Shown: piece by piece, positions 4,101 through 59,960 of the stretch
Layout of the letters: every line of letters begins with the position of its first letter
How positions within the stretch are numbered: position 1 is the stretch's first letter
NCBI GenBank assembly: GCA_028291985.1
Contig: JAQGNE010000061.1
Location: 9,713 to 73,712 of the forward strand
DNA length: 64,000 nt
Direction: 5' to 3'
Source of the DNA: Polaromonas sp.
GTDB taxonomy: Bacteria > Pseudomonadota > Gammaproteobacteria > Burkholderiales > Burkholderiaceae_C
Position numbers and translations under genes: made by a program
The notes under the pieces: model-generated
What the model was told of the DNA's origin: nothing
The model's database searches: none
What the model saw: the letters and a program-made list of their open reading frames with translations, nothing else

Positions 4101-5279
4101 CATCTGTTCATGAACGTGCGTGTGGTGGATGACAATGGCCGGCAGATGGGCATGGGCCGCAACATTGGAGCGCTGAAGGCCGAACTGGGCACGCAGGCAA
4201 GAGGTGCATTCCAGGCGCTGGCCGTTTTGAAAGGCGCGACGCCGTCAGGGCCTGTTGATGCCGTCTCTGGTGAGCCAAGCAAGAAAAATGAATCAAATAG
4301 GCCTCTAGCCCAGAACCTGCGAGGGCTAGTAGCTCCTGAAATCGTAGCAAAATCAACATCTGGACCAGCGACCGTCAGCGTACCGAAAGCGCCCGCACGC
4401 TACACCAGCTGGGCCTTCGGGGAGCTGCCCGAACTGATGGAGATACGCAAGGGCAACCAGACGCTGATCGGGTTTCCAGCGCTGATCGACCTGGGATTAG
4501 AGGGTGGTGGCGCCGTCACCATTGAGGTGTTTGACGAGCCGGCGCTTGCCGCGCTGCGTCACCGTACAGGCTTGCGTCGGCTTTTTTCGCTTCAGATCAG
4601 GGAGACGTTGAAGCACCTGGAGAAAAACCTGCCAGAGCTGCAGAAAATGGCGACGCAGTTCATGCTGGTGGGACGCGGCCCGGACAACTCGGGCGGAGGA
4701 ACTCTGGAAGAGCTGCGGGCGCAGATCATCGAGGTCTCACTCGACCGCGCATTTTTAACCGATCCCCTGCCCAGCACTGAGGCCGAATTCAGCAAGCGTG
4801 TGGAAGACGGTCGCGCGCGGCTGACGCTGATCGCGCAGGAAGTGGCGCGTCTCGCGGCTGCGATCCTTGCCGAGCACGCCGTTGCCCAGCGCAAGATCAA
4901 GGAGACGCGTAACGCGGCAGAAGCAGTGACCGACACCGCGCAGCAACTGCAGCGGCTGGTGCCCAAGACATTTTTGACCGCCACGCCTTACGCCCAGCTC
5001 CAGCACTTTCCGCGCTACCTGAAAGCGATTACCTTGCGGCTGGAAAAATGGCGCAGCGACCCCGCCCGAGATACTGCACGCATGGCGGAGGTCAAACCCC
5101 AGGAGCAGCGTTACTGGCGTTTGTTTGCCGAACGCAAGGGCAGGGCAGACGCAAGGATGCAGGAATTTCGCTGGCTGCTGGAAGAACTGCGGGTCAGCCT
5201 CTTTGCGCAAGAGCTAAGGACCCCACAACCAGTTAGCCTGAAGCGACTGGACAAGGTCTGGGCGCAGCTGAGCAGCTAG
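1194..5279 (+). CDS. hrpA: ATP-dependent RNA helicase HrpA
   Basis: GETGSGKTTQLPK, HTQPRRIAA, DEAHERS, SAT, QRAGRCGR motifs; C-terminus ELRVSLFAQEL; 1361 aa. Confidence 0.97.
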   Translation: MKLRRRQPIIESFEPLSLSLQPQHPSSPSRFPSRPVIDFPESLPVSGKRDEITTAIQSHQVVIVCGETGSGKTTQLPKIALAMGRGKLNYPVGQRAKLIGHTQPRRIAASSVAKRIAEELKTPLGEVVGYKVRFQDRLSRDASVKLMTDGILLAETQTDPLLNAYDTLIIDEAHERSLNIDFLLGFVRQLLPRRPDLKVIITSATIDAQRFANYFESAKGPAPVIMVSGRMFPVEQRWRPFEESRDHDLNDAIADAVDELWASPHNAGDILVFLPGEREIREAADHLRKHLAHQPLNRHAEVLPLFARLSQAEQDRIFDGHSGRRVVLATNVAETSLTVPGIRFVIDAGTARVKRYSFRSKVEQLMVEPVSQAAANQRAGRCGRVADGICIRLYDEQDFAGRPRFTDPEILRSSLAAVILRMKALRLGAVEDFAFIEPPQRRAIADGYQLLAELGAVDEQNELTPVGTNLARLPLDPRIGRMILEARDRSSLDEVLVIASALSVQDVRDRPIDKQAQADQQHAKFDDEKSEFSSYLKLWKWLDVSRGGHGTEHKLSNRQYENLLRENYVNIRRVREWRDIHSQLHAVVGEQKWVLNDKPASYEQLHLSMLCGLLGNIGCKSEEAPSAPRPGAERTSSGQGEYLGARGIKFFPHPGAKLSKRPGRWIVAAELVETTRLFGRGIANIDPAWIEQVAGHLLKKQLLDPHWEKKAAQVTALERATLYGLTVYSGRRANFGRVDPAAAREVFIREALVAGNWDTRLPFLAANQKLVGSVQELEHKARRQDVLVDEELIYAFYDQHLPASICSGVGCESWYKEEARRQPKLLFMTQEELMRHEASGITSQAFPRTLRMGGVDCPVAYLHEPGDAKDGLTVDVPLFALNQVNEERCEWLVPGMLKDKVQALLKTLHQRPRSRLVPLPETAARMAEQLNQPQTFGTGSLTDALLKLVRDATSVDVKRGDIKLEMLPPHLFMNVRVVDDNGRQMGMGRNIGALKAELGTQARGAFQALAVLKGATPSGPVDAVSGEPSKKNESNRPLAQNLRGLVAPEIVAKSTSGPATVSVPKAPARYTSWAFGELPELMEIRKGNQTLIGFPALIDLGLEGGGAVTIEVFDEPALAALRHRTGLRRLFSLQIRETLKHLEKNLPELQKMATQFMLVGRGPDNSGGGTLEELRAQIIEVSLDRAFLTDPLPSTEAEFSKRVEDGRARLTLIAQEVARLAAAILAEHAVAQRKIKETRNAAEAVTDTAQQLQRLVPKTFLTATPYAQLQHFPRYLKAITLRLEKWRSDPARDTARMAEVKPQEQRYWRLFAERKGRADARMQEFRWLLEELRVSLFAQELRTPQPVSLKRLDKVWAQLSS
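4295..4349 (+). repeat. 55-bp double-dyad element, copy 1 (in frame within hrpA)
   Basis: AAATAGGCCTCTAGCCC-AGAACCTGCGA-GGGCTAG-TAGCTCCTGAAATCGTAGCA; perfect CTAGCCC/GGGCTAG stem. Confidence 0.85.
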
Positions 5280-5336
5280 CTGGCGGTGCAGGCCGGCGCT
5301 CGAAACGGTAACGTGAAGCTACTGTCGCCAGGCGTC

Positions 5337-5374
5337 AAAAAGGCTTTGCAACGCTGGTTTGCAAAGCCTTTTTT
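5337..5374. terminator. Bidirectional intrinsic terminator between hrpA and the DUF3309 gene
   Basis: AAAAAGGCTTTGCAA-CGCTGGT-TTGCAAAGCCTTTTTT hairpin with A and T tracts. Confidence 0.85.
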
Positions 5375-5411
5375 CATTCCGCCTCAATGGTGAGGCCGAC
5401 GGACCTGACGT

Positions 5412-5570
5412 CTAGATTCGGCCCATCAACAGCAGGACGATCAAAATGATGACCACCAGGCCAAGACCGCCACTAGGACCGTAGCCCCAACTTTTGCTGT
5501 GACCCCAGGTCGGCAGGGCACCCACGAGAATCAAGATAAGCACGATGAGAAGAATGAGGGAAATTGACAT
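5412..5570 (-). CDS. DUF3309 family small membrane protein (52 aa; absent from ORF track)
   Basis: Manual translation MSISLILLIVLILILVGALPTWGHSKSWGYGPSGGLGLVVIILIVLLLMGRI; AGGAG Shine-Dalgarno upstream. Confidence 0.9.
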   Translation of the reverse strand: MSISLILLIVLILILVGALPTWGHSKSWGYGPSGGLGLVVIILIVLLLMGRI

Positions 5571-5670
5571 GAAGGCTCCTTGTTATGTGAGCCTATTGTT
5601 GATGCTGTAGAGGTAGCCCGCCAGCAGGCACAAAGCGCAACGGCTCGTCATCCAAAGCGGACAGCTGTGC

Positions 5671-7868: not shown

Positions 7869-7966
7869 ATCAAAAAGCGGCTAATAGTTCTTTTTATTAT
7901 GCATTTTCTTTGGATCTGAGCGTTGGAACCCAATACCGAGAGCAGCCATAGCCACACCCCAGCGGC

Positions 7967-8380: not shown

Positions 8381-8424
8381 GGCAAAAATCGAAGTAGACG
8401 ATAAAAAAGTGGCCGCAAATGGCG

Positions 8425-14560: not shown

Positions 14561-14650
14561 TGGCGGAAGAGGCGGGATTCGAACCCGCGGTAGGTTTAAC
14601 CCTACGCACGCTTTCCAGGCGTGTGACTTAAACCGCTCATCCACCCTTCC
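14561..14650 (-). tRNA. tRNA-Ser (anticodon GGA), 90 nt, CCA encoded
   Basis: GGAAGGG/CTCTTCC acceptor stem, CACGC-CTGGAAA-GCGTG anticodon arm, long variable arm, GGTTCGAATCC T-loop, 3' GCCA. Confidence 0.97.
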
Positions 14651-14662
14651 GCGAAGCCTCTG

Positions 14663-20069: not shown

Positions 20070-20093
20070 CGGTCCACCTAATGAAATTTAAGT

Positions 20094-20148
20094 AAAAAAA
20101 GCTCCAGCCCATTGAACATAAGCGTTTATAGCTATCGATTAAGTAGCA
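20094..20148 (+). repeat. 55-bp double-dyad element, copy 2 (intergenic)
   Basis: AAAAAAAGCTCCAGCCC-ATTGAACATAA-GCGTTTA-TAGCTATCGATTAAGTAGCA. Confidence 0.8.
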
Positions 20149-20375
20149 TCAATCAATGTTGCAGCCATGTTAACTGATCAGCTTTCAGCGTAAAAGGATG
20201 TGACCGTCCTTGACGGCCACACGCTTGTCTGGGGAGACTGTCGCCTTCCTGCCACGTCGGCAGCTTCGACATACGTTTTCATTTCGCCTAAACCACACGC
20301 TCACAAATCAGGTTCGTCAACGGAGCGCCCGCCCGGCCGCTCCTGCTGCTCAGGCCGTGCCTGGGCGGGCTGCCG

Positions 20376-24548: not shown

Positions 24549-25297
24549 ATGCAACCCAGCGACATCGAAACCATTGAGCGTGCAACCCTTGCAGCCTTAT
24601 CGCCTGACGCAGTGGAGGATGCCTGGGGCTGGTTACTGCCTTTTGATGGCGGAAAAATCAGCCGCTCCAGAACTGCGGTGCCCCTGGCGCATGACTTGCT
24701 GATGTGACGGACGTGGCGGTTATTGAAAACATCGAAGATCGTTACCGACGCCGTGGTCTGCTGCCTGTTTTTCGCTTGCCGTCGGCCCCAGGCTTTGACG
24801 CAATTGCGGCAGGCGCTCCAGCGAAAGGGCTACTGCGCCGACCGTGCGGTCCCGGTGCAGGTGGCACCCGCCCAGATGGTGCGCCGCATTTGCGCGTCGC
24901 CAAGGGATGAACTGGCAGACGCACCCGACACCGCATGGGCCGCGCTATTTTTAGGCGATGGAATTGACCCGGTTGATGGGGCCAAACGGGTACGGTCCAT
25001 GAGTCGCGCCGAAGGCTCTCTTTTTGCATGCCTGCGCGAGCATGGCCAGACGGTGGCTGCAGGCGCCGGCGCTTTCAGCCATGGCTGGGCCAGCGTCCAC
25101 GGCGTGCGCACGGCCACGGCCAACCGGGGCAAAGGCTACGCTTCGCAAGTGCTGGCCGCACTGGCACAGGCAGCGCTCGGCAAACAACTGGAGCGCATCT
25201 TCCTGCAGCTAGAGGAAGGAAACACCGCCGCCGAGGTTTGTACCGCCGCGCTGGTTTTGAAACCGTGTGGCGCTATGCCTACTGGCGATGCGCGTAA
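24549..25297 (+). pseudogene. GNAT family acetyltransferase broken by three frameshifts
   Basis: MQPSDIETIERATLAALSP...GWLLPFD (stop at 24705), then IEDRYRRRGLLPVFRLP, then LRQALQRKGY...HGVRTATANRGKGYAS...FLQLEEGN, then GLYRRAGFETVWRYAYW*, each in a different frame from the previous block. Confidence 0.85.
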
Positions 25298-25346
25298 CCG
25301 GGCCGTGCGGCCCTCGCTCGCCGGGGTGGTCTTCAGACCCACCGTA

Positions 25347-25402
25347 TGCTATTAACATCATAGCTTACAGTCCATGTCTTATAAGGGCTGTAGCCCTACT
25401 TT
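25347..25402 (-). repeat. 55-bp double-dyad element, copy 3 (intergenic, convergent gap)
   Basis: Minus strand AAAGTAGGGCTACAGCCC-TTATAAGACAT-GGACTGT-AAGCTATGATGTTAATAGCA; stem ACAG/CTGT covaries with CTAG/CTAG of copy 1. Confidence 0.85.
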
Positions 25403-25451
25403 TCTTAAAAAACAACGTCAAGACTGTTTTTGGCGGCTCCGGCTTCCAAGC

Positions 25452-30362: not shown

Positions 30363-30429
30363 TGCCGTTAGCAATTTCCCGGGCGGCATGCTACAGGCGT
30401 GCAAGGCTTCTCCGCGGGCAGACAAGCTC

Positions 30430-32034
30430 ATGAATCAGCCGCTTCTGGAGGTCAGCAACCTGCGCATTTCGTTTGCCGGAAAAGAGGTTGTTCACGGCAT
30501 TGATTTTTCAATCGCACCGGGCGAAAAGCTTGCGCTGGTCGGCGAGTCGGGGTCCGGAAAAACCGTCACGGCCTTAAGCCTGTTGCGGCTGGCGCAGGAT
30601 GCATCCGTCAGCGGAAGTGCGGTCTTTCAGGGTCAGGCCGGCCCGAGCGATTTGCTGGCTCTGTCGGAGCGCCAATTGCGCGGTATTCGCGGCCAGGACA
30701 TCTCGATGATTTTTCAGGAGCCGATGACGGCCCTGAATCCGCTGTTCAGCGTGGGTGATCAGATTGCCGAGGTTTTAGAGCTAAAAACAGGCCTAGCACG
30801 CATATCTGCTTGGAATGAAGCTATTGAATTGCTAGCAAGCACCGGTATTGCAGAACCCGCGCGGCGCGCGCGCTCGTTTCCGCATCAGCTCTCGGGCGGC
30901 CAACGCCAGCGCGCCATGATTGCGATGGCCCTGGCCTGCAAGCCCAGGCTGCTGCTGGCTGACGAGCCCACCACGGCGCTGGATGTCACCGTGCGGAGCC
31001 AGATCCTGGACGTGCTGGCCAACCTGCAGCGGCAAACCGGCATGGCGGTGTTGATGATCACGCATGACCTCAACCTGGTGCGCCGCTTTGCCACACGGGT
31101 GGCCGTGATGGAAAACGGCCATATCGTGGAGCAAGGAACGGTCGACGATGTCTTCCAGCGTCCGCAGCACGCCTACACACGCAAGCTGATCGACAGCACG
31201 CCAACCCGTGACGAGCATGAAGCCCGGCCTGACGCCTCGCTCCCGCCGGTGATGAAAGCCCGGGCGCTTCGCGTCAGCTATCCGGTACGTACGCCCGGCT
31301 TCAAAGGCTGGTTCAAGGCCGGGCAGTTTGTGGCGGTGCAGGATGCCAGCTTTGAGATTCCGGCTGGCCAAACGCTGGGCGTGATCGGCGAATCAGGCTC
31401 TGGCAAGTCCAGTCTTGCACTGGCGGCTTTGGGCTTGCATCCGCACAGCGGCCAGCTTGAAGTTGTCGGCAAGGGCTGGAGCGGCAGCACAGCCGCCAAC
31501 AAGGCCTTGCGACGCGCAGTGCAGGTGGTGTTTCAGGATCCCTTTTCATCGCTGTCGCCACGGATGACGATCGGTGAAATCGTCGGCGAGGGGCTTGATG
31601 TGCATCAGCCGGGGCTTTTGTCTGCCGAGCGCCGTCAGCGCGTCGTACGGGCGCTTTCCGATGTCGGCATGCATCAGACGCTCTTTCCTGGCCTGCTTCA
31701 ACGCTATCCGCATGAGTTTTCAGGCGGGCAGCGTCAGCGGATTGCGATTGCCAGAGCCTTGATCGTTGAACCTCAACTGCTGGTATTGGACGAACCCACC
31801 AGCGCACTTGACGTGACCATCCAAAAGCAGGTTCTGCAATTGCTGCAGCGCTTGCAACGGGAGCGCGGCCTGAGCTATCTGCTGATCACCCACGATGTCG
31901 ATGTGATTCGCGCCATGGCTCACCGGGTGCTGGTGATGAAAAGCGGCAAGGTCATAGAAAGCGGCACTGCGGCAGAGGTGCTGCGATCGCCGCAGCAGGC
32001 CTACACCCGTATCCTTGTGGCTGCTCCGGGCTGA
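30430..32034 (+). CDS. yejF: Peptide ABC transporter ATPase with two NBDs (YejF)
   Basis: Two Walker A (GESGSGKT, GESGSGKS), two LSGGQRQR/FSGGQRQR, two DEPT motifs. Confidence 0.93.
   Translation: MNQPLLEVSNLRISFAGKEVVHGIDFSIAPGEKLALVGESGSGKTVTALSLLRLAQDASVSGSAVFQGQAGPSDLLALSERQLRGIRGQDISMIFQEPMTALNPLFSVGDQIAEVLELKTGLARISAWNEAIELLASTGIAEPARRARSFPHQLSGGQRQRAMIAMALACKPRLLLADEPTTALDVTVRSQILDVLANLQRQTGMAVLMITHDLNLVRRFATRVAVMENGHIVEQGTVDDVFQRPQHAYTRKLIDSTPTRDEHEARPDASLPPVMKARALRVSYPVRTPGFKGWFKAGQFVAVQDASFEIPAGQTLGVIGESGSGKSSLALAALGLHPHSGQLEVVGKGWSGSTAANKALRRAVQVVFQDPFSSLSPRMTIGEIVGEGLDVHQPGLLSAERRQRVVRALSDVGMHQTLFPGLLQRYPHEFSGGQRQRIAIARALIVEPQLLVLDEPTSALDVTIQKQVLQLLQRLQRERGLSYLLITHDVDVIRAMAHRVLVMKSGKVIESGTAAEVLRSPQQAYTRILVAAPG
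30783..30837 (+). repeat. 55-bp double-dyad element, copy 4 (in frame within yejF, degenerate first stem)
   Basis: AAAAACAGGCCTAGCAC-GCATATCTGCT-TGGAATG-AAGCTATTGAATTGCTAGCA; local burst of A/T-ending codons. Confidence 0.65.
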
Positions 32035-37949: not shown

Positions 37950-38029
37950 GTACCGTTCCCCTTTGACAGGCTCGGGGTGAACGGTACCCCCTGCGAGCGG
38001 TGTGTCCGTTCGCGTTGAGCTTATCGAAA
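37950..38029. repeat. REP-like imperfect inverted repeat between rbfA and truB
   Basis: Arms CTTTGACAGGCTCGGGGTGAACGG (37961-37984) and CCGTTCGCGTTGAGCTTATCGAAA (38006-38029); alternative GTACCGTTC/GAACGGTAC stem. Confidence 0.7.
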
Positions 38030-38034
38030 CGCTT

Positions 38035-39063
38035 ATGCCGCCATCCACTGTTTCCCGCCAGAAAATTCAGCGACGTCCCGTTCACGGCGTGCTGCTGCTC
38101 GACAAGCCGCTGGGCTTATCGAGCAACCAGGCGCTGCAAAAGGCAAAGTGGCTGTTGCGCGCTGAAAAAGCTGGCCATACCGGCACGCTGGACCCGCTTG
38201 CAACCGGCGTGTTGCCGCTGTGTTTTGGAGCCGCCACGAAGTTCAGCCAGATGCAACTGGAGGCCGACAAGACCTATGAAGCCCTACTGATCCTGGGCGT
38301 TAAAACCACCACCGCTGACGCCGAGGGCGACGTGATCGAGAGGCGGGCAGTGCCGCCCATCACGCCGGAGTTGCTGGCGGATCTGACGCACCGTTTCACC
38401 GGCCCGCTGAAGCAGGTTCCGCCGATGTACTCCGCGCTGAAGAAGGACGGCAAGGCGCTGTACGAATATGCCAGGGCTGGCCGTGAAGTAGAGCGTGAGG
38501 CACGTCATATCACCGTTTTTAAGCTAAATATGACTTCAGCCCAGGATCCACTTGGGCTGGTAGCTATTAAAATCATAGTGTCATGTAGCAAGGGGACCTA
38601 TATCCGCACGCTCGGTGAAGACATCGGCGAGGCGATCGGTTGCGGCGCGCATTTGGGTTCGCTGCGCCGGATTGAAACCGGCGGCTTTACAGCCAGCCAG
38701 TGCATCAGCCTGGCCGCACTTGAAGCCATGACCGAAGCCGAACGCGATGCCCAGCTGCTACCGCCACAGTCACTGGTATCGGCTTTCCCGGTTGTCACAT
38801 TGGATGCCGACAATGCAGGACGTTTTTTAAGCGGGCTACGCCGCAGGGGCGAAGCCGGCCAGTTTGGCGACGATGCGCCACTGGTGCAGGTTTATGGCTC
38901 TGAGCCACGGGCGTTCCTGGGTTCAGCTCACATCACGGCCAATGAATTGATACCGCAACGTCTACTGAGCCCGGTTGAGGTGCAGGCGATCTGGCAGGCC
39001 GGCATGCAAAACATGCCGCCGGGCCTGCCCGTCTCGCATGCACAGCCCGCCTTGTCGGGCTAG
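38035..39063 (+). CDS. truB: tRNA pseudouridine(55) synthase
   Basis: GVLLLDKP, GHTGTLDPLATG, PMYSALK, CSKGTYIR. Confidence 0.96.
   Translation: MPPSTVSRQKIQRRPVHGVLLLDKPLGLSSNQALQKAKWLLRAEKAGHTGTLDPLATGVLPLCFGAATKFSQMQLEADKTYEALLILGVKTTTADAEGDVIERRAVPPITPELLADLTHRFTGPLKQVPPMYSALKKDGKALYEYARAGREVEREARHITVFKLNMTSAQDPLGLVAIKIIVSCSKGTYIRTLGEDIGEAIGCGAHLGSLRRIETGGFTASQCISLAALEAMTEAERDAQLLPPQSLVSAFPVVTLDADNAGRFLSGLRRRGEAGQFGDDAPLVQVYGSEPRAFLGSAHITANELIPQRLLSPVEVQAIWQAGMQNMPPGLPVSHAQPALSG
38526..38580 (+). repeat. 55-bp double-dyad element, copy 5 (in frame within truB)
   Basis: AAATATGACTTCAGCCC-AGGATCCACTT-GGGCTGG-TAGCTATTAAAATCATAGTG. Confidence 0.87.
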
Positions 39064-39144: not shown

Positions 39145-40968
39145 ATGAGTCACAAACAAATCCGCAATATTGCCATCATCGCCCACGTTGACCACGGCAA
39201 AACCACCATGGTTGACCAGCTCCTGCGCCAGTCCGGCACCTTTGCCGAGCACGAAAAAATGGTCGATACCGTGATGGACAACAACGCCATCGAAAAAGAG
39301 AGGGGCATCACCATCCTGGCCAAAAATTGCGCCGTAACCTGGGAAGGCACACACATCAACATCGTGGATACGCCTGGTCACGCCGACTTTGGCGGAGAGG
39401 TAGAGCGCGCACTGTCCATGGTTGACGGTGTTGTGCTGCTGATCGATGCCCAGGAAGGTCCAATGCCGCAAACCCGTTTTGTGACGAAAAAGGCGCTGGC
39501 TCTTGGTCTCAAGCCCATTCTGGTGGTCAACAAGGTCGACAAGCCCGGCGCTCGCCCTGATTACGTGGTCAATGCGGCCTTCGATCTGTTCGACAAGCTC
39601 GGCGCCACCGACGAACAGCTGGACTTTCCGGTCGTGTATGCATCCGGTATCAATGGCTGGTCTTCGCTGGAGGAGGGTCCGCCCAACGAACAGTGGGGCC
39701 CTGACATGTCGGCACTCTTCAACACCATCCTCAAGCATGTGCCTGCGCAAAAAGGTGATCCGGAAGCGCCTTTGCAGTTGCAGATATCCGCGCTGGACTT
39801 TTCAACCTTTGTGGGCCGTATCGGCGTGGGCCGCATCAGCCAGGGCACTATCAAACCGATGATGGACGTCGTGGTTATGGAAGGCCCGGACGGCAAGGCA
39901 GTGAAAGGCCGTATCAATCAGGTACTGACCTTTCAGGGCCTTGAGCGTGTACAAGCCACCGAGGCCGGCCCGGGCGAGATCGTACTGATCAACGGCCTCA
40001 CCGACATCGGCATCGGCGTCACCATCACCGACCCGATCAACCCAGCGCCGCTACCGATGCTGAAGGTTGATGAGCCAACCCTCACGATGAACTTTTGCGT
40101 CAACACCAGCCCGCTGGCTGGCCGTGAAGGCAAGTTCGTTACCAGCCGCCAGATCTGGGACCGTCTGCAAAAAGAGCTGCAGCACAACGTGGCGCTGCGG
40201 GTCAAGGAAACTGACGAGGAAGGTATTTTTGAAGTAATGGGCCGCGGCGAACTGCACCTGACCATTCTTCTCGAAAACATGCGCCGGGAAGGCTATGAGC
40301 TGGCGGTTTCCAAGCCCCGCGTGGTGATGAAGGACGTCAACGGTGAAAAGCATGAGCCTATTGAGCTCGTGACAGCCGACATCGAAGAGCAGCACCAGGG
40401 TGGCGTGATGCAGGCACTGGGCGAGCGCAAGGGCGACCTGAACAGCATGGAGCCGGACGGCCGTGGCCGGGTCCGGCTGGAGTACCGCATTCCTGCGCGG
40501 GGCCTGATCGGTTTCACCAACGAGTTTTTGAACCTGACGCGCGGCTCGGGGCTGATTTCCAACATCTTCGACAGCTATGAGCCGCACCGCGGCGAGATTG
40601 GTGGCCGCAAGAATGGTGTGCTGATCTCGATGGACGCTGGTGAAATTTTCACCTACGCCCTGGGCAAGCTCGACGACCGGGGCCGCATGTTCGTGCGCGC
40701 CAATGATCCGGTGTATGAGGGCATGATCGTCGGCATCCATTCACGGGACAACGATCTGGTGGTCAATGCCACGCGCACCAAGCAGCTTACCAACTTCCGC
40801 GTCAGTGGCAAGGAAGACGCGATCAAGATCACACCGCCTATCGAGCTGACGCTGGAATACGGTGTTGAGTTCATTGAGGACGACGAACTGGTCGAGATCA
40901 CGCCGAAATCGGTGCGGCTGCGCAAGCGCCATCTGACCGAAAGCGAGCGCAAGCGGGCAGGTCGCTAA
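39145..40968 (+). CDS. typA: Translational GTPase TypA/BipA
   Basis: [52 protein letters not shown]. Confidence 0.98.
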
Positions 40969-40994
40969 GTCGTTTTAGCCGGCCATTCTTAACG

Positions 40995-41049
40995 AAATAG
41001 CGCTACAGCCCTTGTAGAGCAAGGGCGAGGTGCTATACAAAAAAGAGCG
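40995..41049 (+). repeat. 55-bp double-dyad element, copy 6 (intergenic, overlaps the typA terminator)
   Basis: AAATAGCGCTACAGCCC-TTGTAGAGCAA-GGGCGAG-GTGCTATACAAAAAAGAGCG. Confidence 0.8.
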
Positions 41050-41072
41050 ACTTTACCGTCGCTCTTTTTTTT
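41039..41072 (+). terminator. Intrinsic terminator after typA
   Basis: AAAAAAGAGCGAC-TTTACC-GTCGCTCTTTTTTTT. Confidence 0.88.
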
Positions 41073-43498: not shown

Positions 43499-44383
43499 AT
43501 GACGAAAAACGTGTTGACCCATCGCCGAGCCGTCATGCTAATGGTGGTGGTAACCCTGCTATGGTCCATGGCTGGCGTTGTGACCCGGCATCTGGAATCC
43601 GCACGCAGCTTTGAGGTGACTTTCTGGAGAAGCTTTTTCACCGTCGTATCTCTGCTGATCATCCTGCCATTTTTTCAGGGTCGCATGGTTTTCACCCGCA
43701 TACGTCAGGCAGGCTCAGCGCTGTGGCTGTCGGGACTGTGCTGGAGCATCATGTTTACAGCATTCATGGTGGCGCTGACTTTGACGACAGTTGCGAACGT
43801 ACTGGTCACCATGGCAATCGGTCCCTTCATTACCGCTTTGCTGGCCCGGATATTCATAGGCCACCGGATTCCGGGCCGCACCTGGCTTGCGATTGCGCTG
43901 GCTGGCGCCGGAATAGCCTGGATGTACGGTGGGCAAGTTGATCTGTCGAGCCAGATTGCCGGCACCCTGGTGGCGTTGCTGGTGCCCTTTGCGGCAGCAA
44001 CCAACTGGACAGTGGTGCAATACAGCCGAACCCACGGACAGAATGTTGACCTGGTCCCAGCCGTGCTGGTAGGCGCGGTGATGTCATCGGCAATCACCTT
44101 GCCACTGGCTTTTCCGTTGTCGGCGACACCACACGACATCGGTCTGCTGGCTCTGCTCGGTTTATTTCAACTCGCCATACCCTGCGTGCTCTCCGTGTTG
44201 TGTGCCGGTATTCTGAAAGCACCGGAAGTCTCATTGCTGGGGCTGCTGGAGGTGATTTTTGGTATTTTGCTGGCTTGGCTGGGCGCAGGAGAGGAGCCTG
44301 GCGCCCATGTATTGACCGGCGGGGCGCTGGTGATTGGCGCACTGGTCCTGAACGAAATAATTGCTTGGAGACAAAAATCGTGA
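43499..44383 (+). CDS. DMT/EamA family transporter
   Basis: Ten hydrophobic segments, FWRSFF, TTVANV, LLGLLEVIFG. Confidence 0.9.
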   Translation: MTKNVLTHRRAVMLMVVVTLLWSMAGVVTRHLESARSFEVTFWRSFFTVVSLLIILPFFQGRMVFTRIRQAGSALWLSGLCWSIMFTAFMVALTLTTVANVLVTMAIGPFITALLARIFIGHRIPGRTWLAIALAGAGIAWMYGGQVDLSSQIAGTLVALLVPFAAATNWTVVQYSRTHGQNVDLVPAVLVGAVMSSAITLPLAFPLSATPHDIGLLALLGLFQLAIPCVLSVLCAGILKAPEVSLLGLLEVIFGILLAWLGAGEEPGAHVLTGGALVIGALVLNEIIAWRQKS

Positions 44384-45576
44384 ACACATCCACTTTGCCT
44401 GGCGACAGGTCCGGTGCACCTGACGACATCACCGAGGTCATCGCGGAACGCCGCGGCAACGCCGGGCTGATCACCTTGAACCGGCCCAAGGCATTGAACG
44501 CCCTGAACCTGCCCATGATCCGGGCTCTCACGGCGACGCTCCTTGCATGGCGCGACGACGCTGCCGTGCAGCTGGTGGCGATTAGGGGCACCAACAAAGC
44601 GGGGCGACCTGGCACGCCGGACGCCCTGTTTGGTGGTTTTTGCGCCGGCGGAGACATTCGGTTTTTTCACCAGGCCGCACTGGCCAACGATGCACTGCTG
44701 GAAGCTTTTTTCACCGAAGAGTACACACTTAACTACCTCATACAAACCTACCCGAAGCCCTATATCGCCTTCATGGACGGCGTGGTGATGGGTGGCGGCA
44801 TGGGTTTATGCCAGGGCGAATCGCATTCGGCTCATCGTGCGGGCAAGGTCCGCATCGTGACCGAACACACCAAGATGGCGATGCCCGAAACCAATATCGG
44901 GCTTTTCCCGGATGTCGGCGGCGGTTATTTCTTGAGCCGCTGCCCGGGTCATGCGGGGGAATACCTTGCGCTGACGGGTGAGGCCATCGGCGCACAGGAC
45001 GCCATTGGTTTTGGACTCGCTGACGTCCAAAGACCCGCTGCCTCGCTGCCAGAACTGTGGGATAAGTTAGGTACTCACCGGACTGAGACACAAAATGCCG
45101 CAAACGCATGGGTTGCTACTGAATTCATAGCTGAAGCCCCTGGTACAACCAAGGACACCGGCACGATTGATCAATATTTTGGGCTTTTGCGAGTCAAGCA
45201 TATCGTTGACGCCCTTGAAAAGTCACCCGACCCGTGGGCCGTCAAGATGGGCGCGGTTTTACGCAAGCGCTCCCCGCTCATGCTGCACGTCGCGCTAGAG
45301 CAGATTCGCAGGGCGCGCGGCATGTCCCTGGCGGACAACCTGTGCATGGAGCGCAAGATGGTGCACCAGTGCTTTAACCTGCGCCCGGGAACAGCCAGCG
45401 AAACGGTCGAAGGTATCCGCGCACTGGCGGTTGACAAAGACTACACACCAAAGTGGTCCCCCGGACGTATCGAAGATGTCAAACCCGGCATGGCCGATGC
45501 GTTTTTCGCCAGTCCATGGGCACCCGATGCGCATCCCTTGAAAGACCTGCACGACCCGGGTCAGACGCGTCTATAA
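44380..45576 (+). CDS. 3-hydroxyisobutyryl-CoA hydrolase-like crotonase
   Basis: TLNRPKALNAL, FCAGGD, FFTEEY, GVVMGGGMG, AMPETNIGLFPDVGG, EGIRALAVDKD; GTG start overlapping the DMT stop. Confidence 0.9.
   Translation: MNTSTLPGDRSGAPDDITEVIAERRGNAGLITLNRPKALNALNLPMIRALTATLLAWRDDAAVQLVAIRGTNKAGRPGTPDALFGGFCAGGDIRFFHQAALANDALLEAFFTEEYTLNYLIQTYPKPYIAFMDGVVMGGGMGLCQGESHSAHRAGKVRIVTEHTKMAMPETNIGLFPDVGGGYFLSRCPGHAGEYLALTGEAIGAQDAIGFGLADVQRPAASLPELWDKLGTHRTETQNAANAWVATEFIAEAPGTTKDTGTIDQYFGLLRVKHIVDALEKSPDPWAVKMGAVLRKRSPLMLHVALEQIRRARGMSLADNLCMERKMVHQCFNLRPGTASETVEGIRALAVDKDYTPKWSPGRIEDVKPGMADAFFASPWAPDAHPLKDLHDPGQTRL
45114..45168 (-). repeat. 55-bp double-dyad element, copy 7 (antisense, inside the crotonase ORF)
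   Basis: Minus strand AATCGTGCCGGTGTCCT-TGGTTGTACCA-GGGGCTT-CAGCTATGAATTCAGTAGCA. Confidence 0.75.
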
Positions 45577-51768: not shown

Positions 51769-52352
51769 ATGCTTGCCGCACCTGTTCCTGACAACGACGA
51801 CGAGCGACTGAGCGCCTTGCGCGGCAGTTTCTGCGCCTATGCGCCACGTGAAGAGCGGTTTGACCGGATCACCCGCACCGCCAAGTGGTTGCTGGAAGTT
51901 CCGATTTCACTGATCTCGGTCATCGAGCAGGACGAACAGGGATTTCGATCGATACAGGGAGTGGAGATTGACCACATGTCGCCTCAGGTGTATCCGGATC
52001 TGGCACGCGTGCCGACCTGGAACTATGTGGCCGTGCACTGCACGGCCAAGGCCGGGTTGATCGAGGATGCCAGTGCGAACGATGCGCTGCTCAAACAACT
52101 GACTGGCGACCACGAGCCGGCATACGCCGAACAGTGGCGTGCCATCGGGCCGGATTTTGCCGACAAGATGCTGGCAGGCATCGTGGCTTTCAGCCTGGAA
52201 GTCGTCTCGCTGCAATGCAATGCAAGGTCAAAATCAACCAGCACCGGCCCGAAGCGCGCGTGGACTTGAGAGCCCTGTATGCGGCTGGGGACGACCATCA
52301 GCGCGATCTCGTCAGCTGGATGGACACTATTGAGGAAAGCAGGGGGCGCTGA
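51769..52352 (+). pseudogene. Chimeric remnant: GAF-domain N-terminus fused to the C-terminal half of a PaiB-like FMN-binding protein, with a frameshift
   Basis: DERLSAL...EERFDRIT...PISLISVI (GAF) switches at about 51976 to SPQVYPD..RVPTWNYVAVH (PaiB); TGCAA x3 at 52211-52225 shifts frame before KVKINQHRPE. Confidence 0.8.
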
Positions 52353-52353
52353 T

Positions 52354-52605
52354 ATGCGATCGTTGTTTGGGGTCTTGAGTCTTCTCGTGGTGCTGGCGCT
52401 TGTGGGCGCCCTGGTCAAAAAGCAGCTGGCTTCATCGCGCCAGGCCGTGCCGGCTCTTGCGGTTCCCGCCCACGCGGCTGGCAGTGACGCTTCAGCGCCC
52501 GCTGCGGCAACGGTGCGCGAGCAATCCCAGCAGATTCAGCAGCAGTACAAGCAGGCGCTGGAGCAGGCCATGCAGCAACCGCGCGCGGTTCCCGACGAAA
52601 AATAA
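52354..52605 (+). CDS. Small hypothetical protein with N-terminal membrane anchor
   Basis: MRSLFGVLSLLVVLALVGALVKKQL...QQQYKQALEQAMQQPR. Confidence 0.75.
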   Translation: MRSLFGVLSLLVVLALVGALVKKQLASSRQAVPALAVPAHAAGSDASAPAAATVREQSQQIQQQYKQALEQAMQQPRAVPDEK

Positions 52606-52610
52606 GAGTC

Positions 52611-54082
<1,472 letters not shown>

Positions 54083-55612: not shown

Positions 55613-56605
55613 GTGAAAAAGCATATTTACATTTATTCCCCTTCCAGCGCCGTGCGGGACAAAAGTGGCTTCAAGCGGGGCGTGGTGCGTTTGAAGTCCA
55701 TGGGTTATGAGGTTGAGGTCGATCCGGACGCGCTTGCGGTTCATCAGCGATTTGCCGGTACCGACGAGACACGCCTGGCGGCGATTCACCGCGCTGCCGC
55801 TAGCGGCGCCGACATCGCGCTCATCTCGCGCGGTGGATACGGCCTGAGCCGAATCCTTGGCGCCATCAACTACAAGGCAGTGTCCAAGGCCGCAGCTGGC
55901 GGAACCCGGTTTGTGGGCTTCAGTGATTTCACTGCGTTGCAGCTGGCACTGCTGGCCAAGACTGGGGCGACAAGCTGGGCCGGCCCTGCGCTGGCGGAGG
56001 ACCTGGGTGCAGAAGACGGGCCGGACGACATCATGCAGGCCTGCTTTGAGGACCTGGTGTCAGGTCAGGCAGAAGGCACCGGCTGGCGCCTGCCCAAGAT
56101 TCGCGCGATGACGCCAACCGACAACGGCAAAACTTCAGTTGATGCTAGTTTTTCGATAGCAAAAACCGCAGCAGCGACAAGACGAACCGGCGATTTTCAG
56201 GTCAAAAATGCAACCTTGTGGGGTGGCAGCCTGGCGATGCTGTCCTCTCTGGTCGGCACGCCTTATTTGCCGGCAGTCAAAGGTGGCATTCTGTTTTTGG
56301 AAGATGTGGCTGAGCATCCCTACCGCGTTGAACGCATGTTGACCCAATTGCTGCATGCCGGTGTGCTCGCGCAGCAAAAAGCAATCATCTTCGGCCAGTT
56401 CACGCATTACAAATTGCAACCACATGACAAGGGTTTCAAGATGAGCAGTGTCGTGGAATGGCTACAACAGCGGGTGAAGGCCAGGGTATTAACAGGCCTT
56501 CCGTTCGGTCATGTGCCAACCAAGGTCCTGCTTCCGGTAGGCGCTACCGTCAGCCTGGTGGTTGAAGAACGTGACGCCTTTGTACTGTGGGGTCATCAGC
56601 ACTAG
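55613..56605 (+). CDS. ldcA: Muramoyltetrapeptide LD-carboxypeptidase (S66)
   Basis: SPSS, SRGGYG, GFSDFTA, LWGGSL, FLEDVAEHPYRVERML, FGHV. Confidence 0.93.
   Translation: MKKHIYIYSPSSAVRDKSGFKRGVVRLKSMGYEVEVDPDALAVHQRFAGTDETRLAAIHRAAASGADIALISRGGYGLSRILGAINYKAVSKAAAGGTRFVGFSDFTALQLALLAKTGATSWAGPALAEDLGAEDGPDDIMQACFEDLVSGQAEGTGWRLPKIRAMTPTDNGKTSVDASFSIAKTAAATRRTGDFQVKNATLWGGSLAMLSSLVGTPYLPAVKGGILFLEDVAEHPYRVERMLTQLLHAGVLAQQKAIIFGQFTHYKLQPHDKGFKMSSVVEWLQQRVKARVLTGLPFGHVPTKVLLPVGATVSLVVEERDAFVLWGHQH
56143..56197 (-). repeat. 55-bp double-dyad element, copy 9 (antisense, degenerate, inside ldcA)
   Basis: Minus strand AAAATCGCCGGTTCGTC-TTGTCGCTGCT-GCGGTTT-TTGCTATCGAAAAACTAGCA; head and tail in the same register as other copies. 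Confidence 0.55.
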
Positions 56606-56665
56606 CTGCAAATTTCGATTTTTGCGGCTGGGGACAGGTCTTACCGACCAGGCATGCAACGGGAA

Positions 56666-57007: not shown

Positions 57008-57280
57008 GGAAGCGACCTGTTGAAGATTTTGTCCTAGGCAGCAGTGATGCATTCGAACCCTGTAGTACGTCTTGCCTGATGACTGCGTACTGCACCATAT
57101 AAGTCTTACGTTCATGCTCACTTACAGATGAGCCGCAGGCGTCACTTCTGGTAACAAAATGTGAAGTCTTTTAGTGCCGAATTCTCTGCACAGGCACGGA
57201 GATGCCACCGACAGCATGACGTGAGCCGCCCGTCAAGCGGCATCATTTACCATGTTTCAACTCCTTAACCCAGGCCAGCC

Positions 57281-58741: not shown

Positions 58742-58844
58742 GATACGACGCTGTTGCAGCGCCCCAGCCACATACCGATGTATCAAAGCCCCCGATTTGA
58801 AAGGTGTGTGATTTAATTCATTAAAAAGGACACTGCAGCACTCA

Positions 58845-59759
58845 ATGGCCGAAGCTACCGTCGTATTTGCCGACCTCAATGGAAGTACCGGCGTTTTTGA
58901 ATTGCTCGGCAATGCGAAGGCGACGCAGGCCATCACCCGGCTGACAGGATGGATGGGCCGGGTCTGCACCCTGAACAATGGTCAGGTTGTTAAAAACCTG
59001 GGTGACGGCGTGCTGATGGTGTTTACCGAAAACACCGATGCCATCGACGCGGTGATGGAAATGCAGCGGGTCCACACCGAGCGTATCAAGACTTGGCCTG
59101 AGTCATTTAAGATGCGCCTGCAAATCGGGCTTTCACGCGGCGAGGTGATAGAGCAGGGCGGTGACTTTTTTGGCGATGCGGTAAACGTCGCCGCGCGTCT
59201 TTCTGATCTTTCAGGTCCAGACCAGATTCTGGGCACCGAGACAGTCATCCATGAACTCGAACCCAACGGGCCAGTGCGTTTCAGAAGCCTTGGTAGCATG
59301 GACATCAGGGGCCGTAACGAGGCCTGCTTGGTGTACCGCGTTGAATGGCAGAACGAGTTTGGCAGCGAATTTTTCACACTGCCTGCCAGCCTGAATGCGA
59401 TGTATCCGATGAAGACGACATCTAACACTGCTGCCATCCGCCTGTCATGGCTGGATGTCAACGCGACCTTCACGCCAGCGCAACTGCCCATTCATATCGG
59501 ACGCGATACAGAAACCCAGTTTGTCATCAATGATCCGCGCGTGTCGCGCCTTCATGCCAAGATATCGTGGCGCGCTGGGAAGTATCACCTGGAAGATGTC
59601 AGCAGCTACGGCACCTGGCTTCGTTTTGCTGAAAACCAGGCCGTAATCAACCTCAGGCGCCAGGAATGTCCGCTGCTGGTCAAAGGCGAGATGGCCATGG
59701 GCGCACCGTTTGAGGACTTCACCGTGCCGACTGTAGTGTTCACTTTTCAGGCGACTTGA
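58845..59759 (+). CDS. Class III adenylate cyclase domain fused to a C-terminal FHA domain
   Basis: VFADL, VKNLGDGV, DFFGDAVNVAARL; IGRD...SRLHAKI...LEDVSSYGT. Confidence 0.9.
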   Translation: MAEATVVFADLNGSTGVFELLGNAKATQAITRLTGWMGRVCTLNNGQVVKNLGDGVLMVFTENTDAIDAVMEMQRVHTERIKTWPESFKMRLQIGLSRGEVIEQGGDFFGDAVNVAARLSDLSGPDQILGTETVIHELEPNGPVRFRSLGSMDIRGRNEACLVYRVEWQNEFGSEFFTLPASLNAMYPMKTTSNTAAIRLSWLDVNATFTPAQLPIHIGRDTETQFVINDPRVSRLHAKISWRAGKYHLEDVSSYGTWLRFAENQAVINLRRQECPLLVKGEMAMGAPFEDFTVPTVVFTFQAT

Positions 59760-59905
59760 TGCGGTGACGGGAAAGCCGGTGGTCTGCGGGTGGTAATAGC
59801 TGGCGGGAGGGCTGCTACATGTCGCCGGACCGTTACCGCTAACCGCCTATCTCTGATCGTTGACCGCTACGTGCTACGCGAAACCCTGAGGTACGAAGCT
59901 GTGAC

Positions 59906-59960
59906 TGCTATGCATTAGATAGCTATAGGCCCTTGCGTTCAATGGGCTACAGCCACTTTT
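59906..59960 (-). repeat. 55-bp double-dyad element, copy 10 (intergenic, convergent gap)
   Basis: Minus strand AAAAGTGGCTGTAGCCC-ATTGAACGCAA-GGGCCTA-TAGCTATCTAATGCATAGCA. Confidence 0.87.

What the first reader, a model, noticed from the sequence alone, without database searches (positions are those of the whole stretch)
4295..59960. Dispersed 55-bp fixed-geometry double-dyad element, 10 copies in 64 kb, with no mobilising gene nearby
Seen in sequence: copies start at 4295, 20094, 30783, 38526, 40995 and 52611 (+) and 25347, 45114, 56143 and 59906 (-). All share the register AAA-N~10-AGCCC / 11-nt variable spacer / GGGC-N3 / xAGCTAT-N7-RTAGCA. Spacers change sequence but not length. Stem 1 covaries (CTAGCCC/GGGCTAG, ACAGCCC/GGACTGT, CAGCCCA/TGGGCTG, GCCCTTG/CAAGGGC). 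Dyad 2 (GCTAT-N7-RTAGC) is the most conserved part. The element is AT-rich against a GC-rich background and no transposase lies in the window. Inference, three competing models: (a) a non-autonomous ssDNA element (REP/MITE-like, mobilised in trans by a HUH nuclease); (b) a structured RNA module; (c) a selected DNA signal bound by a dimeric protein, like chromosome-organisation sites or Neisseriaceae DNA uptake sequences, which also occur in coding regions and terminators. I do not recognise it as a named family.
Basis: partly seen in the sequence, partly recalled or inferred. Interest (0 to 1): 0.85.

Follow-up and report, generated by a model that had tools for sequence, protein, structure and literature searches.

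The report
In-place-evolving 64-bp genomic DNA signal
This is a roughly 64-bp DNA motif present about 500 times in a Polaromonas genome and in many related genera; it is written into existing sequence, even essential genes, by point substitution rather than insertion, and resident copies change "dialect" along with the rest of their genome, so it behaves like the DNA uptake sequences of Neisseria and Haemophilus rather than a mobile element or an RNA.

Summary
The motif is real. Eight of the ten listed copies are strong (38-65 bits), 30783 is marginal and 56143 is unsupported. The whole 3.58-Mb Polaromonas genome holds about 514 copies, and 501 of them have no indel.

It is not a mobile element:
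- No two copies are more than 82% identical.
- There are no target-site duplications or doublets.
- At three coding sites (truB, an enoyl-CoA hydratase, hrpA), species with and without the motif show no element-sized length difference.
- The truB copy sits at the same codons in at least five named genera.

It is not a structured RNA or ssDNA hairpin:
- Folding is barely better than shuffled sequence (z about -0.6).
- There is no stem covariation within the genome.
- A-tracts swap with T-tracts, which points to shape readout on duplex DNA.

The single Y1/RAYT-like gene does not track the motif and is not flanked by it.

The decisive result is a species dialect. P. naphthalenivorans-type genomes use TTGCGC-N11-GCGCAA where this genome uses TAGCCC-N11-GGGCTA. 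The orthologous truB copy carries its own genome's dialect, and TruB residues change to fit.

Copies are spaced more evenly than chance, show no strand bias, and are densest between convergent genes.

Best reading: a duplex DNA signal read by a protein and maintained by genome-wide drive or selection, as USS/DUS are. Its function is untested.

The parts
4283..4354 (+). Motif copy inside hrpA (ORF 1194-5279), in the hypervariable linker; read in the same-orientation frame 1 as ...ESNRPLAQNLRGLVAPEIVA...
   Evidence: Model score 62.2 bits. Host ORF is HrpA by Pfam. The motif peptide is shared by most Polaromonas species; G001, G010 and G043 lack it, and G001 and G010 have a linker of similar length.
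20083..20153 (+). Intergenic copy between divergent genes (ATP-dependent DNA ligase on the minus strand, GH2 glycosidase on the plus strand)
   Evidence: Model score 56.0 bits; flanking ORFs.
25342..25413 (-). Copy between convergent genes; its first bases overlap the 3' end of ORF 24723-25355
   Evidence: Model score 51.1 bits; ORFs.
30771..30842 (+). Marginal, degenerate or nascent copy inside a YejF-like ABC ATPase ORF (30319-32034)
   Evidence: Only 15.2 bits, E 0.07; not found by nhmmer at E below 0.01. Host ORF.
38514..38585 (+). Copy inside truB (ORF 38002-39063), encoding ...FKLNMTSAQDPLGLVAIKIIV... just before the CSKGTYIR motif; an ancient orthologous site
   Evidence: Model score 57.2 bits. 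Orthologues have the same length with or without the motif. The copy is at the same codons in 41 of 80 named truB loci, including Rhodoferax, Simplicispira, Giesbergeria and Ottowia. It carries each genome's own dialect.
40983..41054 (+). Intergenic copy just downstream of typA/bipA (ORF 39145-40968)
   Evidence: Model score 41.4 bits. The region downstream of typA is not syntenic across species.
45109..45180 (-). Copy in antisense orientation inside the ECH_2 enoyl-CoA hydratase ORF (44200-45576)
   Evidence: Model score 38.4 bits. It lies at the same orthologous site in about 21 of 30 Polaromonas species. Species lacking it align codon for codon, within 3 nt.
52599..52670 (+). Copy filling the whole 61-nt gap between ORF 52279-52605 and ORF 52667-54082
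   Evidence: Model score 57.0 bits; ORFs.
59901..59972 (-). Best copy in the window, between convergent genes (ORF 58845-59759 on the plus strand, catalase-like ORF 60049-62223 on the minus strand)
   Evidence: Model score 64.6 bits; ORFs.
56143..56197 (-).
   Evidence: No model hit with filters off at E up to 10. It has only TGCTAT-N8-TAGC with one mismatch.

Best explanation
WHAT IS SHOWN. The element is a composite signal of about 64 bp: a T-run, an A/T-tract, dyad 1 (AGCCC-N11-GGGCT), dyad 2 (GCTAT-N7-ATAGC) and a trailing A. Its geometry is rigid. It is written into pre-existing sequence by point substitutions, not inserted. At a given chromosomal position, including positions inside essential genes, it persists across genera. 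Resident copies change in step with a lineage-specific 'dialect'.

WHAT IS INFERRED. The reasons are that the two dyads look like half-site pairs for dimers, that A-tracts and T-tracts are interchangeable, and that single-strand folding is negligible.

WHAT I COMMIT TO. The pressure is most likely a molecular drive of the USS/DUS kind. Diminishing returns for a second tag on the same fragment would explain why copies avoid each other and are evenly spaced.

ODDS. About 0.8 that this is a protein-read duplex signal evolving in place. About 0.4 that the pressure is specifically an uptake or recombination drive.
For: - No insertion. At truB, 7 species carry the motif, 1 has a degenerate version and 4 lack it; all are 129 nt except the degenerate one (126), and another family is only 12 nt shorter. 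At the hydratase site, 18 species with the motif and 7 without align codon for codon. TruB has the same length across genera of the family, apart from small deletions in one Variovorax and a Ramlibacter.
- Long persistence. The truB copy is at the same codons in 41 of 80 named loci across at least five named genera. The hydratase copy is present in about 21 of 30 species at 65-72% protein identity.
- Dialects. G149 has 125 copies of CTTTTG-N22-AGCTAT, with dyad 1 reading TTGCGC/GCGCAA. The orthologous truB copy in G149, G139 and G047 carries that dialect at the same codons (G037 and G137 read TGGCGC). The peptide changes from MTSAQDPLGLVAIK to MVLAHDPRAKVAIK.
- No recent copying. The most similar pair shares 53 of 65 positions among about 125,000 pairs.
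- Duplex readout. MFE z is about -0.6, and stem 1 appears in the MFE fold of only 22-24% of copies. There is no pairing excess. The top mutual-information pairs are adjacent positions where AAA swaps with TTT.
- USS-like distribution. Strands are 260 to 254, with no link to GC skew (p = 0.12). Spacing is more even than a class-respecting null (variance/mean 0.716 against 0.949, 0 of 300 simulations). Close neighbours are depleted (5 observed against 18 expected within 300 bp). Between 12% and 29% of copies lie in ORFs, with frame bias beyond stop avoidance. Copies are fewer in compositionally atypical DNA (rho = 0.35).
- Published USS/DUS properties match: point-mutation origin, no orientation bias, many copies in ORFs, even spacing (PMC1939737) and dialects (PMC3630211).
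- A ComP_DUS-type minor pilin is encoded here and in 74 of 81 genera of the family, against 0 of 14 control genomes.
Against: - No uptake or transformation data exist for this motif, and I found no report of sequence-specific uptake in Comamonadaceae.
- The signal is about five times longer and more complex than any known USS or DUS. It has two dyads, which suggests cytoplasmic dimeric binders rather than a pilin.
- Its density (1 per 7 kb) is about seven times lower than that of USS or DUS.
- The ComP-type pilin does not track motif presence.
- Even spacing of about 7 kb and enrichment between convergent genes fit a chromosome-architecture site equally well.
- The polarity of gain versus loss at each site was not resolved with a species tree.
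Confidence: 0.4

Rival explanations
1. The motif is a chromosome-architecture or supercoiling site under direct selection. A dimeric nucleoid-associated protein or a topoisomerase complex binds the two dyads and wraps the A/T-tracts. Sites are kept roughly one per 7 kb (about the size of a supercoil domain), preferentially where positive supercoils build up between convergent genes. Dialects reflect co-evolution between the protein and its site. Functionally this resembles REP/BIME, but the sites arise in place.
For: - Two dyads, phased A/T-tracts and rigid geometry.
- A-tracts swap with T-tracts, indicating shape readout.
- Spacing is significantly more even than a class-respecting null, and copies avoid each other.
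- Density per kb is 1.17 in convergent, 0.64 in tandem and 0.34 in divergent intergenic regions.
- Orthologous positions are conserved.
- Symmetric changes in both half-sites are what a dimer with altered specificity would require.
Against: - Several Polaromonas species (G001 and G013 with none; G002, G007 and G010 with 1-4 copies) and most genera of the family do without the motif.
- Placing sites inside essential coding sequence, and altering residues to keep them, is costly for a site that could sit in a nearby intergenic region.
- Following a dialect change at about 500 sites by selection on each site individually is demanding.
- No candidate binding protein was identified.
Confidence: 0.3
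2. The motif is a REP-like sequence serviced by the domesticated Y1 (RAYT-like) HUH enzyme. The single-copy Y1 gene recognises the motif on single-stranded DNA and maintains or homogenises copies, for example by nicking and templated repair, without classical transposition.
For: - The genome has one Y1_Tnp gene (C48:33982-34680; 28.5-30 bits in Pfam), with a sub-threshold match to NCBIfam REP_Tyr_transpos (57 bits against a cut-off of 80).
- It is single-copy in most genomes and vertically inherited in 75 of 81 genera, and every motif-rich genome that is reasonably complete has it.
- The consensus reads GTAG directly before dyad 2. By recollection, this resembles the GTAG head of REPs.
- The motif is enriched at gene 3' ends, as REPs are.
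Against: - The gene is present in motif-free species and genera (G001, G013, G127, G118, G078 and others).
- It is flanked by a motif copy in only 2 of 19 Polaromonas species, and in opposite relative orientations.
- The hairpins are weak and AT-rich.
- Many copies lie inside ORFs.
- There are no REPIN doublets and no identical copies.
- The spacers are unique to each site, so any conversion tract would have to skip them.
Confidence: 0.12
3. The motif is a non-autonomous mobile element (a MITE, or an RPE-like in-frame inserter) whose copies are ancient insertions.
For: - It is dispersed, AT-rich and has a palindromic consensus.
- In-frame copies in ORFs with a frame bias superficially resemble Rickettsia palindromic elements.
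Against: - No length gain at truB or the hydratase; the hrpA copy lies in a length-variable linker, with no clean ~64-nt presence/absence indel.
- No target-site duplications or conserved flanks.
- No similar pairs beyond 82% identity.
- The dialect switches in place.
- Conservation is motif-like, with cores at 99% and spacers near random, not uniform decay.
Confidence: 0.04
4. The motif is a structured RNA module, such as a terminator, a stabiliser or a small RNA.
For: - The consensus can draw two short hairpins.
- The motif is enriched downstream of genes.
Against: - No Rfam family matches.
- The consensus alifold energy is -0.5 kcal/mol.
- There is no covariation.
- Orientation relative to host or neighbouring genes is roughly balanced: 107 to 94 and 85 to 63.
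- There is no T-run after the hairpins.
- AAA swaps with TTT.
Confidence: 0.03

Closest known systems
DNA uptake sequences (USS of Pasteurellaceae, DUS of Neisseriaceae)
   Same: - Hundreds of copies on both strands with no replichore bias.
- They arise by point mutation in existing sequence rather than by insertion.
- Many copies lie inside ORFs in preferred frames.
- They are stable at homologous positions and spaced more evenly than random.
- They have lineage-specific dialects (PMC1939737, PMC3630211, compared).
   Different: - This motif is about 64 bp with two dyads and A/T-tracts, against a 9-12 bp asymmetric core.
- Its density is 1 per 7 kb against about 1 per kb.
- No uptake bias has been demonstrated.
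- The host family is not known to have uptake specificity.
- The ComP-type pilin does not track the motif.
REP/BIME and REPIN-RAYT systems
   Same: - Hundreds of short sequences with a palindromic consensus.
- Enriched at gene 3' ends and between convergent genes, and rare in divergent promoter regions.
- A single-copy Y1/RAYT-like gene is present in the genome.
   Different: - The hairpins are AT-rich and weak.
- 12-29% of copies lie inside ORFs.
- There are no doublets.
- The Y1 gene is not flanked by the motif and does not track it.
- There are no identical copies.
Rickettsia palindromic elements (RPE; from my own knowledge)
   Same: A repeat with a palindromic consensus found in frame inside conserved protein genes without breaking them.
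   Different: RPEs add extra residues as insertions. Here the host proteins keep their length and the motif overwrites homologous codons.
Spaced motif ATAGCT(N)22CAAAAG of P. naphthalenivorans CJ2 (PMC5217627, Table 7)
   Same: Almost certainly part of this same signal in another dialect. In this element's orientation it is CTTTTG-N22-AGCTAT, which falls exactly on positions 17-22 and 45-50. G149 has exactly the published 125 copies. The published split between intergenic, genic and convergent locations is similar to the one found here.
   Different: The paper reports only a pair of hexamers as a 'potential novel motif'. It gives no full anatomy, no comparison between species and no mechanism.
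BRE, the beta-proteobacterial repeat element (PMC3110155)
   Same: A repeat reported in Polaromonas and other Comamonadaceae, occasionally inside coding sequence.
   Different: BRE is about 90 bp, GC-rich (69%) and tandemly arrayed as a VNTR. It is a different sequence.
HIP1 octamer of cyanobacteria (from my own knowledge)
   Same: An over-represented palindrome that arises by substitution, occurs in coding regions, and has no settled function.
   Different: HIP1 is 8 bp and far more frequent. It is not a composite signal with fixed geometry.

Membership tests
USS/DUS-type uptake signal | Strong genomic over-representation on both strands, with no replication-strand bias | tested here: met
   About 514 copies; 260 on the plus strand and 254 on the minus; no association with GC skew, p = 0.12; 11 matches against 1.2 expected in the window.
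USS/DUS-type uptake signal | Copies arise by point substitution at homologous positions, not by insertion | tested here: met
   The truB and hydratase sites; the hrpA linker is consistent with this.
USS/DUS-type uptake signal | Lineage-specific dialects shared by all copies in a genome | tested here: met
   The CJ2-type dialect has 125, 70, 39 and 21 copies in G149, G047, G139 and G037, against 2 in G000. The resident truB copy follows its genome's dialect.
USS/DUS-type uptake signal | DNA carrying the motif is preferentially taken up or transforms better | not testable with these tools
   This needs uptake or transformation assays.
USS/DUS-type uptake signal | A short (9-12 bp) asymmetric core read by a surface receptor | tested here: not met
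   The signal is about 64 bp, with two dyads and at least 25 informative positions. A ComP_DUS-type pilin exists but does not discriminate: it is in 74 of 81 genera.
REP/REPIN-RAYT | The cognate RAYT gene is flanked by its REPs, and RAYT presence tracks the REP population | tested here: not met
   A motif copy lies next to the Y1 gene in 2 of 19 species, in opposite orientations. The gene is present in motif-free species and genera.
REP/REPIN-RAYT | A stable GC-rich hairpin; extragenic location; frequent inverted doublets | tested here: not met
   MFE z is about -0.6. Between 61 and 148 copies lie in ORFs. Only 4 inverted pairs lie within 300 bp.
MITE | Terminal inverted repeats, target-site duplication, and insertion polymorphism with an element-sized indel | tested here: not met
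   The flanks carry no information. Presence and absence occur without an indel. No two copies are similar beyond 82%.
RPE-like in-frame inserter | The element adds residues to the host protein compared with orthologues | tested here: not met
   No length gain in TruB or the hydratase.
Structured RNA family (Rfam) | A match to a curated model, or covariation that supports a fold | tested here: not met
   Only a tRNA matches at gathering score. Pairing is 64.9% against 64.1% shuffled. Consensus alifold energy is -0.5 kcal/mol. No stem pairs appear in the mutual-information ranking.
BRE (PMC3110155) | A GC-rich unit of about 90 bp, often in tandem | tested here: not met
   The motif is 64 nt with 32-46% GC, and copies are single, compared with the BRE description read.

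The most novel reading that the evidence does not exclude
Comamonadaceae may carry a third, independently evolved self-DNA recognition system. It would use a long bipartite (two-dyad) duplex tag with species dialects that governs DNA uptake or recombination between conspecifics, and that is strong enough to rewrite codons of essential genes such as truB. Alternatively, and equally novel, this could be a previously unknown chromosome-organising site system whose sites are born in place.
Probability: 0.4. Interest if true: 0.9.

Novelty: new variant of a known kind. Interest (0 to 1): 0.8.

Why it matters
- If this is an uptake or recombination tag, it extends sequence-specific 'self' recognition beyond Neisseriaceae and Pasteurellaceae to a large environmental family. 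Its architecture would be very different, and it would give a direct handle on species barriers to gene flow in Polaromonas, Rhodoferax and their relatives.
- If it is an architectural site, it reveals a new nucleoid protein-site system with about 500 evenly spaced positions.
- Either way, it shows that a constraint at the DNA level can override codon usage and even amino-acid identity in essential proteins, since TruB residues change with the dialect.
- In practical terms, these copies should not be annotated as MITEs or REPs.
- Motif density and dialect can flag horizontally acquired DNA and assign metagenomic contigs.
- The question is now experimentally tractable with a defined 64-bp duplex and natural dialect variants.

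Tried and rejected
- The intergenic site downstream of typA was compared across species to look for an insertion indel, but the region is not syntenic and was uninformative.
- A first gene caller based on GC3 covered only 71% of the genome and mis-called genes. I replaced it with a codon log-odds caller that covers 84%. Its gene starts are the longest ORFs, so counts of copies 'inside' genes are upper bounds. The strict test gives 61 as the lower bound.
- Rfam at gathering threshold matched only a tRNA.
- BRE (PMC3110155) was considered and rejected as a different repeat.
- Earlier notes of this scan, searched by sequence and by words, returned nothing.
- A literature search for uptake sequences or sequence-specific competence in Comamonadaceae or Polaromonas found none.
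- Loci from other genomes cannot be read in the Python box, so no blind gene-content comparison between motif-bearing and motif-free genomes was possible.
- RNA-seq and read-level tools were not used.

Full report
OBSERVATION

The core AGCTAT-N8-TAGC with up to one mismatch occurs 11 times in the window against 1.2 expected, and none of 100 dinucleotide shuffles reaches 11. The window is C66:9713-73712 of a 3.58-Mb, 94-contig genome with 60.5% GC.

An nhmmer profile iterated from the ten copies converges on about 514 copies, 260 on the plus strand and 254 on the minus. Its consensus is TTTAAGTCAAATAGGCCTCTAGCCCATTAAATACAAGGGCTTGTAGCTATTAATTTAATAGCAA.

A covariance model built from 100 copies scores eight window copies at 38-65 bits. 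The copy at 30783 scores only 15 bits (E 0.07), and the copy at 56143 is not detected.

In 501 of 514 copies there is no indel. Conservation is motif-like. GCT at positions 46-48 is 99-100% conserved, AG at 60-61 is 98-99%, and AGCCC at 21-25 is 85-97%, while the spacers are close to random. Window copies have 32-46% GC against 59% for the window.

NOT A FOLDED SINGLE STRAND

Rfam at gathering score gives only a tRNA. On 100 copies, 64.9% of cells in the two proposed stems pair, against 64.1% after shuffling columns. Stem 1 pairs in only 51% of cells. RNAalifold gives -0.5 kcal/mol.

Across 501 copies the MFE is only about 0.6 SD below dinucleotide shuffles with either RNA or DNA parameters. 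Stem 1 appears in the MFE fold of 22-24% of copies.

Mutual information finds no long-range pair. The strongest couplings are between adjacent positions where whole tracts swap: AAA or TTT at 9-11, and AA or TT at 26-27 and at -1/0. This makes sense for minor-groove or bending readout on duplex DNA and not for a hairpin.

COPIES INSIDE GENES

Pfam shows that 4283-4354 lies in hrpA, 38514-38585 in truB and 45109-45180 (antisense) in an ECH_2 enoyl-CoA hydratase. All three ORFs are intact.

Genome-wide, at least 61 copies sit in long open frames with high GC3 on both sides, and up to 148 lie inside genes called by a codon log-odds model.

Frame use is strongly biased. Of the same-orientation copies, 28 of 34 use the frame that reads GCT-ATx as Ala-Ile. 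Of the opposite-orientation copies, 19 of 27 use one frame. Stop avoidance explains only part of this, because same-orientation frames 0 and 1 are stop-free about equally often (29% and 34% of intergenic copies) yet are used 4 and 28 times.

INSERTION OR OVERWRITE?

This was the turning point. At the truB site, seven Polaromonas species carry the motif, one has a degenerate version and four lack it. All have a 129-nt segment except the degenerate one, which has 126. A different family is only 12 nt shorter. TruB length through this segment is the same in Variovorax paradoxus, Rhodoferax, Comamonas, Simplicispira, Ottowia and Giesbergeria; V. humicola and a Ramlibacter are 3-4 residues shorter.

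At the hydratase site, 18 species with the motif and 7 without align codon for codon, within 3 nt. In hrpA the motif lies in a hypervariable linker. Most species share the motif peptide, and the motif-free species G001 and G010 have a diverged but alignable linker of similar length.

So the motif is gained or lost by substitution. It overlays structurally required residues instead of adding a loop. This excludes MITE-style or RPE-style insertion at these sites.

AGE AND DISTRIBUTION

The organism is a Polaromonas species. The model finds the family at the scoring cap (149-150 hits) in 12 of 18 other Polaromonas species. It finds 43 copies in G003, 1-4 in G002, G007 and G010, none in G001 and G013, and none in 12 other families of the order.

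The truB copy sits at the same codons in 41 of 80 named truB loci, including Rhodoferax, Simplicispira, Giesbergeria and Ottowia. The hydratase copy is orthologous in about 21 of 30 Polaromonas species at 65-72% protein identity. AT-ending codons such as ATA persist there in a genome rich in GC3. The DNA motif itself is therefore under long-term constraint.

Within this genome no two copies share more than 53 of 65 positions. There is no sign of recent copying.

THE HUH/RAYT IDEA

The genome has one Y1_Tnp homologue, at C48:33982-34680 (about 30 bits in Pfam; 57 bits against a cut-off of 80 for NCBIfam REP_Tyr_transpos). It is single-copy in nearly all (two hits in G005) of the 19 Polaromonas species, including the motif-free ones, and is present in 75 of 81 genera.

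A motif copy lies beside it in only two species, and in opposite relative orientations. Copies are single: only 5 neighbour pairs lie within 300 bp, against 18 expected. The defining features of a REP-RAYT system are therefore not met, although the gene cannot be excluded as a factor.

DIALECTS

PMC5217627 lists ATAGCT(N)22CAAAAG in P. naphthalenivorans CJ2 as an uncharacterised 'potential novel motif'. It reports 125 copies, of which 101 are intergenic, 18 are in genes and 34 lie between convergent genes.

In this element's orientation that pattern is CTTTTG-N22-AGCTAT, which falls exactly on positions 17-22 and 45-50. Genome G149 has exactly 125 matches, while this genome has 2. The G149 copies read CTTTTGCGCA...GGCGCAAGCAGCTAT. 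Dyad 1 is thus TTGCGC-N11-GCGCAA instead of TAGCCC-N11-GGGCTA. Pairs 21/41 and 24/38 have changed symmetrically, and the geometry and dyad 2 are unchanged.

The orthologous truB copy in G149, G139 and G047 carries this dialect (G037 and G137 read TGGCGC) at the same codons with no indel. G000 reads ATGACTTCAGCCCAGGATCCACTTGGGCTGGTAGCTAT, and G149 reads ATGGTTCTTGCGCACGACCCACGGGCGAAAGTAGCTAT. The TruB peptide changes from MTSAQDPLGLVAIK to MVLAHDPRAKVAIK.

Resident copies therefore follow a genome-wide recognition specificity by point substitution. The spacers remain site-specific, which argues against long-tract gene conversion between copies.

DISTRIBUTION ALONG THE GENOME

Density per kb of intergenic DNA is 1.17 in convergent, 0.64 in tandem and 0.34 in divergent regions. 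Orientation relative to genes is 107 to 94 in tandem regions and 85 to 63 inside genes. Strand is not associated with GC skew (p = 0.12), and hits in the complete genome G074 show no replichore pattern.

Spacing is more even than a null that respects how many copies fall in each class of location. There are 10 gaps longer than 20 kb against 19.8 +/- 3.3 expected. The variance-to-mean ratio per 10 kb is 0.716 against 0.949 +/- 0.077, and 0 of 300 simulations are as regular.

Copy number per 10 kb rises with GC content (rho = 0.35) and with native codon usage (rho = 0.26), so the motif is scarcer in atypical DNA.

INTERPRETATION

Shown:
- The signal is born in place and conserved at fixed positions.
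- It comes in dialects, and resident copies follow their genome's dialect.
- It therefore depends on a trans-acting reader with lineage-specific specificity.

These properties match those published for USS and DUS: point-mutation origin, no orientation bias, many copies in ORFs, even spacing (PMC1939737) and dialects (PMC3630211).

I therefore commit, at about 0.4, to an uptake or recombination-mediated molecular drive acting on a 'self' tag. Diminishing returns for a second tag on one fragment would explain why copies avoid each other. A ComP_DUS-type minor pilin is encoded at C4:13270-13734 and occurs in 74 of 81 genera, against 0 of 14 control genomes, but it does not track the motif.

The main rival, at about 0.3, is an architectural or supercoiling site bound by a dimeric protein. 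That reading fits the dyads, the 7-kb regularity and the enrichment between convergent genes. The Y1-serviced REP variant stands at about 0.12. MITE/RPE and RNA models are each at or below 0.04.

Against the uptake reading:
- The signal is about five times longer than any known USS or DUS, and it is dyad-symmetric.
- Its density is lower.
- No competence data exist for it.

NOVELTY

The motif is unnamed. Only a hexamer pair from it was listed statistically in 2017. It is not BRE. I rate it a new variant of a known kind: USS/DUS-like evolutionary behaviour with a very different, long bipartite architecture, in a family with no known uptake specificity.

Noticed in passing
G016, several contigs (for example C24:8820-8853, C135:632-665, C182:11275-11308): One Polaromonas species has several near-identical copies reading CTTTTGACCAATGGATAT(A/G)TGCGCGAGCAGCTAT, unlike G000, where no two copies are close. 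This suggests a larger repeated unit, such as an IS or a duplicated gene, that carries a motif copy.
   Followed up: no
Hydratase site orthologues in L191, L199 and L196 (G038, G004, G042): A 12-nt insertion (CTAAAA(T/C)A(C/A)CC(T/C)) lies directly beside the motif in three species only. This is a clade-specific indel adjacent to the motif, not the motif itself.
   Followed up: no
G000 C48:33982-34680 (outside the window): A single-copy Y1/RAYT-like gene is conserved in 75 of 81 genera of the family without flanking REPs. It looks like a domesticated HUH enzyme with no known partner sequence.
   Followed up: partly
G000 C4:13270-13734 (outside the window): A type IV minor pilin with an N_methyl domain and a partial ComP_DUS domain (model positions 1-42 of 87, 43 bits) lies directly after a 1658-aa ORF. 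ComP_DUS pilins are near-universal in this family but absent from all 14 control genomes.
   Followed up: partly
window 52599-52670: This copy fills the entire 61-nt gap between ORF 52279-52605 and ORF 52667-54082, so the stop codon of one gene and the start codon of the next abut or overlap the motif's ends.
   Followed up: no
window hrpA, around 4500-4520 (residues LGLEGGGAVT): A 4-residue indel (xEGG or DGGG) in the HrpA DUF3418 region is shared by G000, G009 and G042 only. It is unrelated to the motif.
   Followed up: no
window 14564-14650 (-): A tRNA gene; this is the only Rfam hit in the window at gathering score.
   Followed up: no
L095:982-1053 and L120:1041-1112 (Ottowia truB loci): Both Ottowia loci carry a second motif copy about 900 nt upstream of the truB copy, at similar positions. 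This may be another conserved intragenic site specific to that genus.
   Followed up: no
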